Shown here: positions 1,590 to 63,000 of the stretch, piece by piece | Position numbering within the stretch: position 1 is the first letter of the stretch | Layout: each line of letters begins with the position of its first letter | Assembly: GCF_028641065.1 (NCBI RefSeq) | Contig: NC_073405.1 | Coordinates: 3,782,001-3,846,000 of the forward strand | DNA length: 64,000 nucleotides | Direction of reading: 5' to 3' | From: Leucoraja erinacea | Lineage: Eukaryota | Made by a program: the position numbers and the translations under genes | The notes under the pieces: model-generated | Told to the model about the DNA's origin: nothing | Seen by the model: the letters and a program-made list of their open reading frames with translations, nothing else | Database searches by the model: none

Positions 1590-2520
1590 TGGAGTAGTTT
1601 GAGATCGAGAAGCAGGTGATACTGAGGCTTTTGAAGAACATTAAGGTGGATGCGTCCCCAGGGCCTGATGAGATCTGTCCCAGGTTATTGAGGGAGGCAA
1701 GAGAGGAAATTGCATGGGCCTTGACAAGGATCTTTGTTTCTTCTCTAGCCAAAGGCGAGGTTGCGGAGGACTGGAGAGTGGCCAACGCCAAAGATCCTAT
1801 AGCAAGATAGACCACTCCTGCTAAATGCAATGGGCTGACGTGTAGTACGCAACGGAACGGAACTTGGGCCTTTTTTTCATCCATTTCCGTAACCGGACCG
1901 GACCCGACCTGACCCGACCCGACTCGCAGTGTAATCAACGTTGCGGGGGAACAGTTTGTGTTAATAAATTATAATTCTGAAAATGAGGAGAAGATTTCTC
2001 CCAAATAAATTTTATTTTTACGAGGATGTTTCAGTAACCGGCTTCCATCTCCGCACTAGTATCTTTGCTCCACTACGGGATCTTTGGTACGGAGACGGAA
2101 GCCGGTTACGGAAATGGGGCCGAAAATTACCCATGAATCTGCCCATGACCGTACTGCATCTTTTTTGTTGAGTGGACTATCTTGCTCGCTATAGGATCTT
2201 TGGCCAACGCTGTTCCTTTATCTAAGAAAGGAGCGTGGAGAGAATCCAGGGAACCATAGGCCAGTGAACCTCAAGTCAGTGGTCGGGAAACTAGTGGTCG
2301 AGAAAGGGCTAATTACGGATTGTCAGCACGGTACACAGCAGGTCATGTCTCCATATTTGAGTTTTTGAGGTGGTGACATTGATGACTGTATGGTGGTGAA
2401 TGTTGAACACGTGGATTTTAGTAAGGCTTTTGATAAGGTCCCTCATGGTAGGTTGATCCAGAAGATTAAGATGTACGGAATTCACAATGACTTGGTCATA
2501 TGGATTCAGAACTGACATTC
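1590..2520 (+). mobile_element. CR1 LINE ORF2 internal fragment, interrupted by the P-like MITE
   Basis: SPGPDEICPRLLRE...EDWRVAN|AVPL..KG continues across the MITE. Confidence 0.8.
1789..2202. mobile_element. Non-autonomous DNA transposon, P-element-like, 414 bp
   Basis: TIR CAAAGATCCTATAGC ... GCTATAGGATCTTTG; exact 8-bp TSD GCCAACGC (1781-1788, 2203-2210); splits a CR1 ORF2 fragment. CANRG ends with a 7-8 bp TSD fit the P superfamily. Confidence 0.8.
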
Positions 2521-49074: not shown

Positions 49075-49176
49075 CTATGCTGCTGTTGTATCGATGAGAT
49101 GCATTGTCCGAATACTAATTGGCACAGAGTCACTGTAGCCGCCCTTAGACTGCATCTGGTCGTGTACATCATTTAC
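49075..49176 (-). CDS. CDC42SE-like last coding segment with TAG (exon continues to a donor after 49033)
   Basis: ttgcag/ acceptor; QMQSKGGY motif; stop at 49077-49075. Confidence 0.92.
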   Translation of the reverse strand, partial: VNDVHDQMQSKGGYSDSVPISIRTMHLIDTTAA

Positions 49177-52100
49177 CTGCAACAGAACAAAATGAAATGG
49201 CTTGTTAATTGGATAAAAGTGCAATATTTTAATGCTGCACTGTCAAAACGTTCTTATTTTCTAACGAAGAATGTTGCTTGCTTTCAATTTATAGTTTGTT
49301 CAATATCCAAACATGTTATGAAAAATCAGTCAGGATATCAGCATACTTGCCAACCACTTCCTCGGGAGTGGCATCCAAGAATCACCACTTCTGCAGCACT
49401 CCAGCCAAGATTTGACCCCTCGTTTTTTAACTTAATATGCTTAGCACAAAGTTCACTTAGTACAAAGTGAATTAGCAGAAAACTTTAAGTGTGGAATAGG
49501 TCAGGAGGACACATTATTGGCAACAATGCTGAACACAAGATTCAACTGTCAGCTCCTTCTGCCAGTTTACCCACTAAACAAAAATCAGATTCATTTCTGG
49601 TTTCTGGAGGGAGAGACAGATTGCATTTTGCAACGATCTTTGGCAAAGATTCTCCTAGAGCATCACCCCCTACATCGAGAGAGTTAGTCGTCAAGTGCAG
49701 AGAATATTTTGACCGTACAAAATGTCGTGCCAGTTTCAATCCAAGGCCATTGAGTTAACTTGGGCAGTAAAAGGTAATTCTCAATATATTCAAGCTGAGC
49801 GCGACAAGAATGAGTTCCTCCAGGTCATTATGCAGACGTTGTCGTAAAAATGTGCTGACGCAGAGTGGAGGTTTGATCTCGCCAAGTTCACTTCACACCT
49901 CATGCTGTTAAGGAGCATATACTCCCTGTGGTTTCTGCTGAGTGCTTTGGTTTGTTCCTGCATCCCAAAGACCCAATTGGAGGGCTTGTGTTAGGAGGGA
50001 TTTGATAAACCGAGTCTGTTTTCTCTGGCGCAAAGGAGGCTGAGGTGTGACATGACTGAGGTACATTAAATTATGAAAGACATATACATGCTGAATAGCC
50101 AGCAGAGACACAAGAGACTGCCGATGCTGGAATCTTGAGCAAAACGCTAAGTGCCGGAGAAACTCAGCGGATCAGGCAGCGTCGGTGGAGGGAATGGACA
50201 GACGACGTCTTGGGTCAGGCTCCGCCATCAAACTGAGCACAGGAGTGGAGAGAAAGTTGTAAAAGGGCAGGTTGTGGAGATACTGACAAAGGCTCATGGT
50301 GAAAAGGAGACAAGAGGGAGGCACATAAGAAAACAGGAGGAATTAAATGTAAAGCAGGAGGGGGGGGGGATATGGGTGAAGAACGCCTGGAAAAGAGGGG
50401 GGGGGGGAGAAAAAAGGCATTGTGGGACTCTGGGCTGGGAGATGAGTGGGTGAAAGGTGGATGTAGGCGGGGGGCAGGTTGTGGGAGATCGCTGACAAAG
50501 GCTCATGGTGAAAAGGAGACAAGAGGGAGGCACATAAGAAACAGGAGGAATTAAATGTAAAGCAGGAGGGGGGGGGGATATGGGTGGAAGAGGACGGGGG
50601 GAGTAAGGAAAAGAGGGGGGGGGGAGAAAAAGGCATTGTGGGACTCTGGGCTGGGAGATGAGTGGGAGAAAGAAACTGGGTGAACGGGGGAAGGGGGAAA
50701 TTGTGGGGAAAAGTAATCGCACAAGGTTGGGGGATATTACTTGAAATTGTATAACTCAATGTCCATAACGTTGGGTTGTTGGCTGCCCAAGCGGAACATG
50801 TGGCGCTGATCTTCTAGTCTGCGTGTAACCTTGTTCTGGCAATGGAGGCGGTCAGCGCCAGCGTCCTCTCTCCCTTCTGACAGCCATCTTGGACACAAAA
50901 TCTAAAATCTCTGCCTATTCCACTGACACTTCCACACACAAAAATCATCCCAACTCCTTCCTCAGGAGCCACAAGTGGTCCTGTGCCACTGTGGGGGGGA
51001 AGGGGGTAACAATGTCCAGGTCCCCATCCCCAGTTCTCCCAAAGTCAGGCCTATTGAGGCCTCCGCTATTGCCTCTACGGAGGCCCGATGTTCCTGGCCG
51101 TTCTGGCCGGGTGCTGTTGCCCCGGCGTCGGGAGAGTCCTCTCAGTGGCTGGGCCACCTAACTGGAGACCGCGGCTTCCGAAGCCGACAAGGCCGCGCTG
51201 GTTTGGAGCTCCCAGGCTCCCGATGTTGAAGTCGGCGCCGCCCAGATGGCTGTCGGAAGGGAGAGTCCACTCCGCGCGGTTTTGGCTGCCGCTGCTCTCT
51301 CTTCATATTGTGTTTTTTGAGGTGTCTTTGAAATTCTCGGCGGTCACAGCTTTTACCGGATATGTTTTTTTACCAGTAAGTGTCGATCCAGCGCGGCGAC
51401 CCAGGCAAAATTTATTATTATCGCCCTTAGCTCCGCGACCTAGCCTAGCTCCCCACTAGTGCTGTGCCATCCACACGAAGCAAGCCTTTCACTATGCTGG
51501 GCAGAGGTCCCCCACTCCTATGTGACTGATCAACTGATCTCCGTAACATCCACGCCCACAAACATGGCAGGCCACCAGGCCACGGGTTTTCACTCTGCTA
51601 CCCTCTGGGAGGCGATTACAGGTCTCTGAGAAAAAGCGATAAAAATACCGACTCTAACAGGTAGGGGGGACCAATAATTCGAAATATTTCTTACCCCCTT
51701 TTTAATACCATTTATTATTTTCTTTACTGAAAAGTCTATTTTGTGTTGTACAGTTGTTGTGCAATGACAATAAACATATTTCATTTCACATGCTCACATG
51801 CTCACTGTAATGAACTGCTAGAAAGCATAGAACATTACAATTGAAAAATAACTTGTAAGCTTTCAGAATAGGTGAGAGACACTTACAGAGTGAATTTGTT
51901 CGCCGAACATATCTCCAGCCCCCATGTGAGATGTGTGAACAAAGTTTGTTGGCTCTCCGATCATGGTCCTATCTATCCGTCGCCTCCTTTTCTGCGAAAG
52001 TAGTACAGATATTAACGGTGTGACTCTACAGAACTTTAACGCAGGGGTACGCTAGCAGTGAGGAGACAACACAGCTGGAATGATACATGATATCTACAAC

Positions 52101-53144
52101 GGAAAGCAAGCATGAGAAATACACCCTCCAACCTCATCTACTGTATCCGTTATACATCGGCGAGACCGAACAAAGACTGGGCGATCGATTCGCTGAACAC
52201 CTTTTCTCAGTCCGCCTGATCTCCCGGTTGCGAAACACTTTATTTCCCCTTCCCATTCCCACACTGACCTTTCTGATCTAGGCCTCCTCCATTGTCAGAG
52301 TGAAGCTAAACGCAAATGGGAGCAACAGCATCTCATATTTCTCTTGGGCAGCTTACAGCCTAGTGGTATGAATATTGATTTCTCCAACTTCAAGTAACCC
52401 TTGCATTCCCTCTCCCACCCAACTCGTACCAGCTTCAAAGTCATCTTGTTGAGTCTCATTGTCTGTACCTGTTCGTTCCCACCTGGGCCACAGCTAACAA
52501 TTGCCCTCTTTCCTTTATCATCGTTTGTTTTTTGCATATCTTTCATTCATTTGTTCTATATCTCCCCACATCACCGTCTATTTCTCTTGTTTCCCTTTCC
52601 CCTGACCCTCAGTCTGAATCTGAAGAAGGGTCTCGACCCGAAACGTCGCCTATTCCTTTTCGCCAGAGATGCTGCCTGACCCGCTGGGTTACTCCAGATT
52701 TTTATGTTTGTCTTCGGTTTAAACCAGCATCTGCATTTCCTTCCTACGCAGGAAAAATACATCCTTTATAAAGGTTTTCTCCCATCTAAATATGATTACG
52801 TAGCAGCTTAGTCTGAGCGGAAAGGCAATCCAAACCAGTAAATAGGCATCGCAATACTCATGCGTGATAGATGTTAGATATGGTTATTTCTCTCAGCTTG
52901 TGCAATCTAAATGTGCCAAACAAGGGCATCCAGGAATACAAAGAGCAGATGGTACTTCTGTTCAAATCACTGTGCCTTCTCTGTTGAATGTTTATAACAA
53001 ACTACTCTACGCCATTAATAATGTTCTGTACATTATAAAATCAATAAGCAGCTAAACCGTGGGAATCGTGATTGTAAACAGCACACTCACCGGCTGTGGT
53101 TGTTCTGCAATGCAGCAGTTGAAACATAACCAGAATTCGCTCAT
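49075..53144 (-). CDS. CDC42SE2: CDC42 small effector (SPEC/CDC42SE family), CDC42SE2-like; join(53144..53091,51991..51887,49176..49075), 86 aa
   Basis: Translation [18 protein letters not shown]|[35 protein letters not shown]|[33 protein letters not shown] has the N-terminal CC, a basic patch, the CRIB motif [11 protein letters not shown] and QMQSKGGY. All junctions are phase 0 GT-AG. Whether it is an orthologue or a paralogue of CDC42SE2 is uncertain. Confidence 0.9.
50266..50666 (+). repeat. Tandem duplication, about 200-bp unit x2, inside a Penelope remnant
   Basis: GGCAGGTTGTGG...GACTCTGGGCTGGGAGATGAGTGGG repeated at ~50266 and ~50472. Confidence 0.88.
51887..51991 (-). CDS. CDC42SE-like CRIB exon
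   Basis: 105 nt, cgcag/ ... /gtaagt; CRIB motif. Confidence 0.94.
52138..52750 (+). mobile_element. Penelope-like element 3' end: GIY-YIG endonuclease remnant plus pLTR
   Basis: [18 protein letters not shown], then remnants of the ORF C-terminus, then the pLTR with CTGAAGA...GAAACGTC. Similar remnants at ~18045-18410(-), 28170-28895(+), 42148-42735(+) and 50110-50850(-). Confidence 0.8.
53091..53144 (-). CDS. CDC42SE-like first coding segment [18 protein letters not shown] (exon extends 5' to about 53366)
   Basis: CCG/gtgagt donor; upstream acceptor tttctacag/ at 53367. Confidence 0.92.
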
Positions 53145-54444
53145 TCTTACAAGCTACTCCGCAATATTTGGCAAATCCAGAATCACTTGGCGATAAGAGA
53201 AGTCCCAAAGAAACCAAGTGGTGTGAATGTTACACGGCACTACGAATGTGAATTTGTGGGCCAGAGTCCAACAGTCAGGCAAGCTTATTATTGGTCTTCC
53301 GACTTCAAAGTTTCTCCTTCCAACGCTGCAGCAGGTGAGTGTTTCCCCGGTCCTGTTTTATCCAATCTGTAGAAACAAAAGAAATATTTGTTTTTCGTGA
53401 AACAAATCTCTTTTTTGGATTTTCTAATTGCCTCTGTGCCCTGCGCGGTTAGACACCAATGAAATGCGGGCTGGCCATCTACACAATGACTTTAAATAGA
53501 AAATATTGTTCCCATAGTGACTGAAGGAGCTCATCTGGCAAGGATTCACTGCAAATAATATTGTATGTTCTCAGTTTCAATTCCAAGTCAAGTGCTATAT
53601 TCGGAGGCACTAACAGTCGATGCAGTTAATGAATTAAAAACATGGCTTCATGATCCTGATCTAAATGAATAGTTTCTGTGATGAATGTTTCGAAAACCAC
53701 CGCTGTGCAATACCAAGTCAAAGTCTGCAATCTAGTATGTGTAGCAAGGAACTCCAGATGCTTGTTTAAACCGAAGATAGACACGAAGAGCTGTGATAAC
53801 AGCGGGTCAGATAGCATCTCTGGAGAAAAGGAATGGGTGACATTTCGGGTCGAGACCCTTCTTCAATCTGAGGAAGGCAAGCCCGAAAAATACGTAATTT
53901 ATAAAGGTTTTCCTCCATCCAAATCTGAAGAAGGGTCTCCACCCGAAACGTCACCTATTCATTTTCTCCAGAGATGCAGTCTGACCCGCTGAGCTACTCC
54001 AGCTTTTTGTGTCTATCTGCAACCTAGTATCCTACTTTACAAAGAGTCAGCCGAGTAAACAGTTCCGTGCAAGAGGCACGCTTCAGGGAAAGCAGACACT
54101 GGCAAGGACAATCCATCTGGATCCAACAATGCCATTTTGTGCACCATAAATCAAAACCTTAGTAACAACCAATCATAGTGTGTCAATGGAAAATCTGCAA
54201 AAGGGAATGCGAAAAGCCACAGACGCCCAAAGCCATAGGTGAATTATGTGTCCTTCAGCCAACAGATTCACAGGACAGGAGGAAGAAAATCTCCATCAGA
54301 AAAGTTGCAAACTATTAAAAAAAAGAAAGCATCATTTTCAATTGCTTCAAATGTCTAATTGGCACCACTGTAGGAAAAGCACACGATTTGCTAGCTTTAT
54401 AATATACAGCTTGCTCTCAAGTCACAGCCAAGCAATAAACTCAC

Positions 54445-59116: not shown

Positions 59117-59530
59117 GACATAGAAAATAGGTGCAGGAGTAGAGGCCATTCGGCCCTTTGAGCCTGCACCGCCATTCAATATGATCATGGCAGATCATCC
59201 AACTCAGTATCCTGTACTTGCCTTCTCTCCATACCCCCTGATCCCTTTAGCCACAAGGGCCACATCTAACTCCCTCTTAAATATAGCCAATGAACTGTGG
59301 CCTCAACTGTGGCAGAGAATTCCACAGATTTACCACTCTGTGTGAAAAATTATTTCCTCATCTCTGTCCTAAAAGATTTCCCCTTTATCCTTAAACTGTG
59401 TGACCCCTTGTCCTGGACTTCCCCAACATCGGGAACAATCTTCCTGCATCTAGCCTGTCCAACCCCTTGAGAATGTTGTAAGTTTCTATAAGATCCCCCC
59501 TCAATCTTCTACATTCTAGCGAGTACAAGC
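59117..59530 (-). mobile_element. CR1 LINE 3' end
   Basis: RRLRGDLIETYNILKGLDRLD and tail. Confidence 0.82.
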
Positions 59531-59739
59531 ATCTGTATCTGTCAAGAACGGGGTGTGGGCCCGAAACGTCGCCCACTCCTTCTCTCCCAGAGATGCCGCC
59601 CGTCCCAGCTGGGGGTTACTCCAGCATTAACGTTGCCCAGCAGCAGCACCAGCCCCGACCCCCACCCTCTCTCCCTCCCAGCACAATAACGGGCAATGAA
59701 CGTCCACATGAAGCGAGATACCCACACACACAAAGCAGC

Positions 59740-60050
59740 ACCTCCGCCCGAGGATGGATCGCCGGCGACTGGGAGAGCCGAGCCGAGCAAGGCCGAGTCT
59801 AGCCGAGTAGGGCCGAGCCGATGGTCGCCCGCAGCAACCGCCCCGCCTGGTACCTGAGGCCGCAGCTCCTCCCCGGGTCCTAACGCCCGTCCGCTGCTTG
59901 CCCCCCACGGTCCTAACGCCCGCCCGCCCTCCTCACATCAAGCCTCTGTGAGACACCAACCCGCGTCACGGCACCTGCCGCAAGCTGCCAGGGTTGCGCC
60001 ATAAGAAAACGTTACAGGTCACTCACTGCGTGCCCCTTGCCTTGGCAAAA
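59740..60050 (-). promoter_or_regulatory. Small CpG island, probable promoter and first non-coding exon of the CDC42SE-like gene (donor CAG/gtacca after 59854)
   Basis: CpG-rich; GC boxes (CCGCCC); CRE half-site CGTCA near 59965; donor oriented toward the gene. Confidence 0.55.
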
Positions 60051-60060
60051 ACCTCCAGCT

Positions 60061-60098
60061 CAAAGATCCTATAGCAGAGCAGAGCTATAGGATCTTTG
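60061..60098. mobile_element. 38-bp remnant (probable excision footprint) of the same P-like family
   Basis: CTCCAGCT + CAAAGATCCTATAGC-agagcaga-GCTATAGGATCTTTG + CTCCAGCT. Confidence 0.8.
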
Positions 60099-63000
60099 CT
60101 CCAGCTTACAATAAAACTAGAGACTGAAGAAGGGTCTCGAACCGAAATAGGGTCACCTATTTGGAAATAATTCAAAACTCCAGCACTTTGTGTCTTTTTT
60201 TTTCTGTACAAAACAAAAAACAAAGGAAACTGTGTCAGTCAGGGAATTCCACAAATTCACCCAGAGAGTTGTGAATTTGTGGAATTCCCTGCCACAGAGG
60301 GCAGGGGAGGCCAAATCACTGGATGGATATTTAGAGAGAGTTAGATGCAGCTTCTAGGGGCCAGTGGAATCAAGGGATATGGGGCGAAGGCAGGCCTGGG
60401 TTATTGATTTGGGACGATCAGCCAGGATCACAATGAACGGAGGTGCTGGCTAGAAGGGCCGAATGGCCTCCAGCACCTATTTTCCATGTTCTATATGAAA
60501 TTGAACTTATGCAAACTCCTCCACATATCTCCTTGTGAAGTCGGTAACAACTGTGGCATATTCCTTTTCTCCAGAGGTGTTGCCTGGCCAGCAATTTGTG
60601 ATTATTTTCAGCAATACACTAATACAGTACTGAAACTCCACAGTAATAAATCGTGCTGAATTCACCACACTTCACTTTCAGCAACAAAAGAACTACATTC
60701 TGCTTTCTGTGCTTTCCCTTTGCTCTATTTATTGGACTTGAGTTTGACCTGATATTTATGTGTAGTATTATCTGATCGGATTGAGTGACATGCAAATCAA
60801 AGCTGTTTATCCTCAGTACACGTGACAATAAACTAGACGTAAATGAACTGGTGATATAGAAACAAAGAACTGCAGATGCTGGTTTATGCCAGATAGACAC
60901 AACGTGCTGGACTCAGTGCGTCAGGCCGTATCTCTGGAGAAAAAGGATTGGTGAGGTTGGATCCCGTCCCAAAACACCACCTATCCCTTTTCCTCCAGAG
61001 ATGCTGCCTGGCTCACTGAATTACTCCAGCACTTTGTGTCTGCGAGAAACTGCCGATGCTGATTTACCAAAAAAAAACACAAAGTGCTGGAATAATTCAA
61101 ACTCCAACACTTTGTATCTTTTTTTTTGTACAAAACAAAGTGAACTGAACGTATTCAAACTCCTCCACACATTTCCTTATGAAGTTGGTAACAACTGTGG
61201 CATATTGGTTCAGGTCCATTGCTGAGTCCTTGAATATTGCCCAGACTACCGACTCAAAGCAATACCAAAGTCGTTCTTCTCCTCAGTCCTCACCACTGAG
61301 GCTGCATTCTATTCCACCATTTCATAAGATCATCTTTCCTCTCACCTCTAGATACTATTTCAGGGTCTTGGCTCAAAATAAAATACATATTTTGTCTCCA
61401 CAGATGCTGCTCGGCCTGTTGAGTTCCTCTGGCATTCTGCATTTCTTACCAGAATCCAGCATCTGCAGTCTCTTGTGTCGTTGTACCTCTTTCAGTTTAC
61501 TTTAGTTTATTTTACTATCATCATGTGTATCTAGGTGCAGTGAATAGATTTTGTTTGCATGCTATCCAGTCAAAGAAAAAACTATCCATGATGACAATCA
61601 AGCCATCCACAGTGCGCAGATAAAAATAATAGATACAATATTTAGTGCAAGATAAAGTCTGATTAAAGATAGCACAAAGGCATCCAATAAGGTAGATGGC
61701 AGGTCAGGACCGCCCTGCTTCTTGCCAAATCATCATATACTTTGAGTCACAAGCACTCATGAAAAGTTAAGATGTCGAGCAATAGGCCATCTGGCCACTG
61801 AAACATGCCCCACCATTCAATATAATCATGGCTGATCTATCCGGGCCTTAACCCCTCCTCTGTGCCAGATGCCCTCAATTTTTTGATCTTTCAAAAATAT
61901 ATCTAAGTTCTTTAGTCTCTATACATCTATTAGTCTCAACCATGAGTATACAACAAATGCCCAAACTCAAACAAAACCCCAAAAATATTAATAAATACAT
62001 TTGTTAATATCTTTCATTATGGAGAGGATTAGTTAATTGAATTGAATTATTGGCCAAGTATTCATATACAAGGAATTTGCCTTGGTGCTCCGCTCACAAG
62101 TGACAACAACGTACAGTGACAGTTAGGAATGACACATAAAACATTAAACACTAATAATAAAACATTATTGAATCAACATATGAATTAAATAAAATACCAG
62201 GGCAAAAGGAGGCTACAGGTTTTTGGTAAAACTGTTTTTATGTCTGGCTGTGGCAGCTTTGTCAACTGAATGGAAAAAATCTAATGTTGCAAAATTTAAA
62301 AAAAATCTGCTCAGTTACTTTGTCAACCACAAAGAGAGTTCACAAAGGCCACACATTGTGAATGATGAGCTGCAGTCTGTGGAAGGAAGATCACCTGCCC
62401 AAAAGCGATGCTGGAACAAATGGCTTGGTGTTCAATGGTTGTGTGTAGTTCTGGTCGTCACATTAGAAGGTAGAGGCTTTGAAGGGCATGCATACAAGAT
62501 TCACCAGGATGGTGCCTGTGTTAGAAAGTATCAGCTATAAGGAAAGTGTACGAAGGAACTGCAGATGCTGGTTTACACTGAAGAGAGACATAAAATGCTG
62601 GAGTAACTCAGCGGGACAAGCAGCATGTCTGGGTAGAAGGAATAGGTGATGTTTCAGGTCGAAACCCTTCTTCAGACTGAAAGTCAGGGGAGAGGGAGAC
62701 ATAAGGGAGACATTAGACATAAGGTGTCAAAACGAGACATCAAAAGAGATGATAATCAAGGAAAATGTATAGATCATTGTTAGCTAGGAAAGGTGATTAC
62801 ATTTTATCTCTGTTTGCTTTGTTGTCATTCTCTCATGAAGGACTGTTGGACTATTGGACTGTTTGCTTTGGAGCATCGGAGGCTGAGGAGAAACGTGATC
62901 TAAGTATAGAAAATGGTGGCATAGACAGGGTGGATAATCAGTCTTTTTCCCAGATTAGAAAGGTCAAATATTAGAGGGCGTTACTTTAAGGTAAGAGGGG

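What the first reader, a model, noticed from the sequence alone, without database searches (positions are those of the whole stretch)
60053..60106. Apparent P-element excision footprint upstream of the CDC42SE-like promoter
Seen: an exact 8-bp duplication (CTCCAGCT) flanks 38 bp made of the first 15 nt of a TIR, 8 nt of filler or TIR continuation, and the inverted 15 nt. The same TIR bounds a 414-bp element at 1789-2202. Established: Drosophila P transposase cuts with 17-nt staggered ends, so repaired donor sites keep about 15-17 bp of each TIR between the TSDs; hAT and Tc1 do not leave such footprints. Inference: a P/THAP9-like transposase mobilised this family in this lineage, with both an insertion and an excision scar in one 64-kb window. 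The scar leaves a 15-bp hairpin close to a probable TSS.
Basis: partly seen in the sequence, partly recalled or inferred. Interest (0 to 1): 0.72.

Follow-up and report, generated by a model that had tools for sequence, protein, structure and literature searches.

The report
P-type transposon excision scar
This 38-base mirror-image stub between two 8-base repeats is likely the scar left when a P-element-type jumping gene cut itself out; hundreds of such stubs lie in this genome, and where they stop suggests the enzyme likely cut 18 or 20 bases inside its ends, depending on the end's sequence, rather than the 17 known from fruit flies.

Summary
Observation confirmed. The genome G000 holds 297 such end-to-end stubs of 30-60 bp with exact 15-nt arms; in the first 50, 46 have an 8-bp TSD and they fall at 45 unrelated sites. 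The same ends bound ~1-kb non-coding elements and P-transposase-coding copies; a sister-TIR copy is a complete 10.5-kb element with perfect TSD, THAP, DDE and GTP-binding domains. So the P attribution holds. The inner nick therefore likely follows TIR sequence, not a fixed ruler. The window's scar reads 20+15 nt joined at GC, plus a duplicated AGAGC. No promoter function or TSS was shown. The scan has reported such scars before on other DNA of this genome.

The parts
60053..60060 (+). left copy of 8-bp target-site duplication
60061..60080 (+). retained first 20 nt of one element end (stops at the AGC^AAGAT junction; nt 21 also matches, probably by chance)
   Evidence: match to parent ends; cap shown
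60081..60085 (+). second AGAGC: likely templated insertion at the join (its last GC is shared with the right arm)
   Evidence: 33-mer without it is the second commonest scar class (10 of 50); a 43-mer with two extra copies exists; inference for the mechanism
60084..60098 (-). retained first 15 nt of the other element end
60099..60106 (+). right copy of 8-bp target-site duplication
1789..2202 (.). 414-bp non-autonomous element of the same TIR clan, TSD GCCAACGC at 1781-1788 and 2203-2210; its first ~150-170 bp match the 3' ends of P-transposase-coding copies at 75-83%
59400..60000 (.). CpG island, probable promoter/first exon of the CDC42SE-type gene; candidate splice donor near 59854 on the minus strand
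   Evidence: TSS not determined
53091..53366 (-). CDC42SE-type exon with start codon at 53144
   Evidence: gene name from recalled N-terminal motif
51887..51991 (-). CDC42SE-type exon with CRIB (PBD) motif
   Evidence: Pfam PF00786 22.5 bits over cut-off 21.3

Best explanation
The 38-bp insert is made of the outer 20 and 15 bases of a P-superfamily transposon's two ends between an 8-bp duplication, and is likely the scar left when such an element was excised and the two single-stranded tails were end-joined. Steps: (shown) an element with these TIRs inserts with an 8-bp TSD; (shown) TIR-bearing copies encode a THAP + P transposase; (established for Drosophila P, PMC2895639) excision leaves long 3' tails of TIR sequence on the donor flanks, which are joined blunt, at microhomologies or with templated insertions; (inferred) here the tails were 20 nt long in this subfamily and 18 nt in the sister subfamily, both ending at the AGC^AAGAT junction, so the inner nick is likely placed by the inner TIR sequence; (inferred) this scar is 20+15 joined at GC with one templated AGAGC. 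It is most likely a neutral fossil at a promoter edge.
For: 297 paired-arm objects of 30-60 bp, control 0; 249 of 297 are 30-40 bp and only 50 exist at 41-70 bp. 46 of 50 have an 8-bp TSD at <=1 mismatch, 0 of 50 at 6, 7, 9 or 10 bp; 45 unrelated sites; modes 38 (13), 33 (10), 40 (6) = 20+20-2, 20+15-2, 20+20. 2462 full-length ends continue CAAGATRG, yet in short objects 590 ends stop at nt 20 against 49 with a matching nt 21, 7 of those with nt 22, 1 with the whole AAGATAG. De-duplicated: 50 of 90 ends stop at the junction, 1 at +1, 39 short of it. Sister TIR: of 45 scored ends at 28 sites, 35 stop at nt 18, 1 at 19, 0 at 20; modal scar 34 = 18+18-2, blunt 36 four times, 18+20 blunt once. Complete 10,519-bp element with sister TIRs, perfect TSD and a 773-aa P frame, with Pfam P domains, split THAP, the three catalytic acids and 7 of 8 GTP-contact residues of 6P5A. 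The exact 20-type TIR ends P-coding copies on C1300 and, with one change, C4. Empty paralogues in a host repeat carry one copy of the 8-mer (54 of 100 rows, 44 scarred, 2 other). Two of four TSD-less scars sit inside a larger TSD-bounded unit, as expected of joins between ends of nested elements. Same junction classes as Drosophila P excision (PMC5466332 Table 1; PMC2895639).
Against: No site was seen both filled with a full element and as a scar (0 of 100 rows hold a full element). No complete coding copy with the 20-type TIR at both ends was found: four have only the 3' end within the 20-30 kb read and broken frames, and 0 of 20 followed 5' ends led to a transposase. The junction is also a GC microhomology, which would pile joins up there anyway. 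For the 19-nt end type the data do not decide: 5 of 28 ends match one base further and no blunt join was seen. One identical 38-mer occurs at 7 of 45 sites. Raw genome counts are inflated by passengers in other repeats (17 of 26 loci share one site; several of 10).
Confidence: 0.8

Rival explanations
1. P-type scar, but the cut is a fixed 17 nt as in Drosophila (or another constant length); the apparent cap comes from repair: short synthesis from the sister chromatid, or trimming of a longer tail, followed by joining at the GC microhomology, with 'blunt' classes made by GC slippage.
For: The cap coincides with a self-complementary GC in every TIR type; aborted gap repair followed by end joining is the common outcome in flies (PMC2895639 passage); 2 long-retention objects exist.
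Against: The next palindromic microhomology (AT at nt 24-25, a 48-mer) and 21+20 or 21+21 joins are absent from the full list of 50 objects of 41-70 bp, whereas 20+20 makes up 5 of 45 independent scars and 18+18 four of 28 sites. In flies many joins keep the whole tail and none exceed it without Rad51.
Confidence: 0.13
2. The short objects are themselves mobile mini-elements inserted at empty sites.
For: Identical 38-mer at 7 unrelated sites; intact outer TIRs and TSDs; no filled/scar pair seen.
Against: 14 length classes in 50 with microhomology and templated-insertion joins; scar types mirror the end pairs of long elements (20/20, 19/20, 18/18); TSD-less hybrid scars inside larger units; Drosophila P needs 138 and 216 bp of end sequence (PMC1562414 passage). 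Large identical sets are passengers in other repeats, sharing one flank.
Confidence: 0.04
3. Transposase-independent deletion of the loop between paired TIRs (hairpin or cruciform collapse) left the stubs.
For: Scars inside one host repeat show many secondary duplications and deletions, so these palindromes are unstable.
Against: TIRs pair over about 27-33 nt, so such deletions should leave arms of up to that length; the cap lies inside the TIR at nt 18 or 20.
Confidence: 0.03

Closest known systems
Drosophila melanogaster P element and its donor-site end-joining products (PDB 6P5A; PMC7776569 section 6 read; PMC5466332 section 9 read; PMC2895639 passages read)
   Same: CA...TG termini, 8-bp TSD, THAP-HTH-RNase H/GTP-binding transposase (E 1.3e-42 to 6P5A), scars made of TIR tips with blunt, microhomology and templated-insertion joins; target bias T at 2 and A at 7 (35 and 32 of 46) fits GTCCGGAC (PMC2577343 section read).
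   Different: Retained tail capped at 20 or 18 nt rather than 17, varying with TIR type; natural, genome-wide record in a vertebrate rather than laboratory recoveries; K400 is R.
Zebrafish Pdre2 / THAP9 (PMC10983969, first part and passages read)
   Same: Vertebrate P-like elements with 8-bp TSD and internally deleted copies.
   Different: Pdre2 has 13-bp TIRs and about 50 copies; the passages read report larger donor deletions and give no stagger length. Here TIRs are about 30 bp with 2462 exact full ends. Orthology to THAP9 not tested; named nearest hits are mollusc P transposases at 35-40%.
Anopheles gambiae P-MITEs (PMC1562414, passages read)
   Same: Short non-autonomous elements sharing ends and 8-bp TSD with P masters.
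   Different: The word footprint does not occur in that paper's main text; the objects here are far shorter than those MITEs.

Membership tests
P superfamily DNA transposon (parent elements) | TIRs beginning CA with 7-8 bp TSD | tested here: met
   46 of 50 scars; 18 of 20 long elements paired with 8-bp TSD; feature list recalled
P superfamily DNA transposon (parent elements) | Transposase with HTH, split RNase H and GTP-binding insertion domain inside the TIRs | tested here: met
   Sister-TIR element on C956, both ends and TSD; 20-type copies only at the 3' end
P superfamily DNA transposon (parent elements) | N-terminal THAP domain | tested here: met
   Two upstream frames in L038 match THAP positions 1-28 (18.5 bits, under cut-off) and 49-87 (28.9 bits, over cut-off); splicing not shown
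P superfamily DNA transposon (parent elements) | DDE triad and GTP-contact residues | tested here: met
   D206, D296, E524 align to D230, D303, E531; 7 of 8 GTP residues identical. The C4 copy lacks the E
Drosophila-type P excision footprint | TIR tips of both ends kept between an intact TSD, with end-joining junction classes | tested here: met
Drosophila-type P excision footprint | Retention capped at 17 nt | tested here: not met
   cap at 20 and 18
Drosophila-type P excision footprint | Same site known with the full element before excision | tested here: inconclusive
   0 of 100 host-repeat paralogues filled; runs show the scar shared by organisms A and B and a possible empty site in C
Drosophila-type P excision footprint | GTP-dependent staggered cleavage shown biochemically | not testable with these tools
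   needs enzyme assay
Domesticated vertebrate THAP9 | Single-copy gene without TIRs; orthology by tree or synteny | tested here: not met
   multi-copy and TIR-bound; tree not built
hAT superfamily | hAT transposase inside these TIRs | tested here: not met
   The only transposase found inside or next to these ends is P-type; no separate search for hAT frames was run

The most novel reading that the evidence does not exclude
In this vertebrate P lineage the long staggered cut is not a fixed ruler: the non-transferred strand is nicked at an inner TIR motif (AGC^AAGAT), giving 18-, 19- or 20-nt tails according to the TIR, even at the two ends of one element, and the genome's hundreds of independent scars map that nick without biochemistry.
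Probability: 0.6. Interest if true: 0.68.

Novelty: new variant of a known kind. Interest (0 to 1): 0.55.

Why it matters
[quoted passage not shown] Two natural subfamilies whose scars stop 2 nt apart at the same motif give a direct prediction that can be tested by TIR swaps, and an apparently intact vertebrate transposase frame with several 95-99% identical copies to test it with. It also shows that end joining after P excision left a large germline record in a vertebrate. The single scar at this promoter has no shown function, and the scar class has been reported by this scan before.

Tried and rejected
17-nt cap: rejected. Constant 20-nt ruler (my first reading): rejected by the sister subfamily stopping at 18. 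Taking raw counts as independent events: rejected; the 36-mer hybrid (47 of 89 rows) and much of the 20-29 bp class (975 places; 10 loci inspected) are passengers in other repeats. Search for a complete coding element with 20-type ends: 20 of the 40 best 5'-end hits followed for 9.9 kb, none coding; 20-30 kb around four coding copies gave no matching 5' end. Filled/scar paralogue pair in a host repeat: none in 100 of 168 rows. Promoter enrichment: 9 of 19 scars near a CpG island against 54 of 400 random window points, but 4 of the 9 are one GC-rich host repeat and the background is one window; not used. Expression and TSS: no RNA holder listed; no RNA run was laid, so the TSS stays open. Organism C allele: contig ends its match at 60060 with 19 unaligned letters that were not displayed; left as suggestive only. 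Literature: seven searches listed no paper on natural P footprints in a vertebrate or on a stagger other than 17 nt; the library lacks most subscription papers and Repbase; two primary papers were not held; no supplements were opened. Sequence look-up in earlier findings gave nothing.

Full report
Observation. The window shows CTCCAGCT, a 38-bp insert with perfect 15-nt inverted arms, and CTCCAGCT again at 60053-60106. The same 15-mer bounds a 414-bp element at 1789-2202 with TSD GCCAACGC. It is the only such short object found in the window by a looser scan. The window lies in G000, 2.19 Gb; I read it as a skate-like genome from recalled repeat content and earlier notes, which I did not test.

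The class. G000 holds 297 objects with both exact arms 0-30 nt apart, control 0; 50 have 41-70 bp, all listed, 48 of them within 60 bp, so 249 of 297 are 30-40 bp. A further 975 objects of 20-29 bp match 10-nt arms, but of 10 inspected several share flanks, so that count is not a count of events. For the first 50 places, an unselected sample by position, 46 have an 8-bp duplication at one mismatch or fewer and none has one of 6, 7, 9 or 10 bp; they form 45 flank clusters and 14 length classes, with modes 38 (13), 33 (10) and 40 (6). TSD positions 2 and 7 are mostly T and A (35 and 32 of 46), which fits the P target motif (PMC2577343, abstract and section 6 read) but also hAT preferences (recalled), so it does not discriminate. 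In one host repeat, 54 of 100 listed copies (168 in all) have a single copy of the 8-mer and no insert, 44 carry a scar or its remains, 2 are other, none has a full element (counted by eye).

The parent. PF21787 finds 40 matches in G000. Around 14 of them I read 15-30 kb. On C956 a 10,519-bp unit has sister TIRs at both ends, the perfect TSD GTCGTGAC and a 773-aa open frame with the P HTH, RNase H and GTP-binding domains, two upstream THAP pieces, and E 1.3e-42 to Drosophila P transposase with the catalytic triad and 7 of 8 GTP-contact residues kept (residue list from PMC7776569 section 6). Five other contigs carry it at about 92-99% identity in pieces. Copies on C1300, C4, C8 and C1132 encode a related transposase (79% for the C4 frame) and end 3' in the 20-type TIR, exact on C1300; C1300 and C4 homology stops at that TIR. 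Their frames are broken and their 5' ends were not found. The 414-bp element's first 150-170 bp match these 3' ends at 75-83%. Non-coding elements of 863-1764 bp with 20-type TIRs at both ends and 8-bp TSDs are common (18 of 20 followed) and are the likely donors of scars such as this one. Named nearest proteins are mollusc P transposases at 35-40% (best 120 of 330 listed).

Where the scars stop. Full ends continue CAAGATRG after nt 19 or 20 (2462 ends) and left and right ends stay alike to about nt 33. In short objects 590 ends match through nt 20 and then differ (pattern RRAGC), 49 match nt 21 (pattern RGAGC, full list), 7 of these nt 22, and 1 the whole AAGATAG; most nt-21 cases are explained by the partner arm beginning with A or by CpG decay. 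These counts include passengers. On 45 independent scars, 50 of 90 ends stop at the AGC^AAGAT junction, 1 one base later, 39 earlier. The classes read as 40 = 20+20, 39 = 20+19, 38 = 20+20 less a GC overlap, 33 = 20+15 less GC, and the longer ones carry local duplications. These are the classes recovered after P excision in flies, with 17 in place of 20 (PMC5466332 section 9 read; PMC2895639 passages and table rows read). The window's scar is the 33-mer with one extra AGAGC.

Ruler or motif. The sister TIR has only 18 nt before the same AAGAT. Its short objects (89 rows, full list) include 47 rows of one 36-mer; 17 of the 26 loci examined share one site in a host repeat. I kept one of these and 29 of the 31 other places (2 not fetched): 28 of 30 have an 8-bp TSD at one mismatch or fewer; at 28 sites by script (27 by eye, L247 sharing the L181 site), 35 of 45 scored ends stop at nt 18, 1 at 19, none at 20; the mode is 34 = 18+18-2, with four 18+18 and one 18+20 blunt joins. 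The search pattern fixed the first 17 nt on one side, which hides shorter ends but not longer ones. So the cap moves with the motif. Against this: the junction is itself a GC microhomology; the 19-type ends are undecided (5 of 28 match one base further, no blunt join, counted by eye); only one blunt 18+20 join shows two lengths on one element; and nothing here is biochemical.

Mini-element rival. It is the join expected from two 20-nt tails ending in GC. Two of the four scars without TSD lie inside larger TSD-bounded units of 158 and 300 bp, as would follow from joining ends of nested elements. Drosophila P needs 138 and 216 bp at its ends, Anopheles P-MITEs under 100 (PMC1562414 passages). 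No filled/scar pair at one site was seen, so excision itself remains inferred.

The locus. A CDC42SE-type gene lies on the minus strand with exons at 53366-53091, 51991-51887 and near 49155 (the name rests on a recalled motif plus the CRIB match). A CpG island spans about 59400-60000 and a candidate donor lies near 59854. The scar is about 60 bp beyond the island and folds as a hairpin (-16.1 kcal/mol for 60053-60106, DNA parameters), which any such palindrome would. In public runs (4 of 24 laid) X1 (organism A, possibly the source) and X3 (organism B, one contig across the whole stretch) carry the same scar; an X13 contig (organism C) matches 59976-60060 and then has 19 letters that do not align, as an empty site would give, but the letters were not shown. 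The TSS and any regulatory effect are untested.

Comparison and verdict. It works like a Drosophila P footprint and its parents pass the P-superfamily tests, but it fails the 17-nt feature and is not the domesticated THAP9. Seven searches (listings and abstract starts only, apart from the papers named) showed no report of natural vertebrate P scars or of another stagger length; subscription papers, Repbase and supplements were not seen. Eight earlier notes of this scan describe the same scar class elsewhere in this genome, some already mentioning differing lengths; they are not independent support. Verdict: new variant of a known kind, interest 0.55.

Noticed in passing
L002, L007, L009, L013, L143 and the rows: One scar carried inside another repeat has diversified strongly: 11-14 bp tandem expansions, deletions into the flank, and 12-bp remnants, nearly all built on the same 15+20 polarity. 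Palindrome instability or re-cutting by the transposase are both possible; unexplained.
   Followed up: partly
L038:7257-7582, L054:6890-7301, L036:2895-2930: The coding P elements themselves contain several older scars of related TIR variants, so these elements inserted into and left one another repeatedly.
   Followed up: partly
L015 (158-bp unit) and L117 (300-bp unit): Scars with no adjacent TSD sit inside larger TSD-bounded units: likely joins between the end of an inner and an outer element.
   Followed up: partly
G000 contigs C956, C1087, C1188, C1296, C1305, C154: Six copies of a ~10.5-kb P element with 772-773 aa open frames at 98-99% protein identity, all on small contigs; C1188 has non-matching flanks. 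Possibly recent activity or unplaced duplicates.
   Followed up: partly
window 2029-2114: Inside the 414-bp element a 28-nt inverted repeat encloses two direct, degenerate TIR-like ends.
   Followed up: no
window 60012-60068 in run X5: A high-depth contig matches up to the eighth base of the scar and has 4 unaligned letters; could be a different allele or end clipping.
   Followed up: no
window 60240-60291: A perfect 21-nt inverted repeat with a 10-nt spacer 140 bp from the scar, unrelated to the P TIR.
   Followed up: no
G000:C10:4279166-4279230: A 65-bp scar holds about 25 nt that look like a captured retroelement tail between two 20-nt arms (identity recalled).
   Followed up: no
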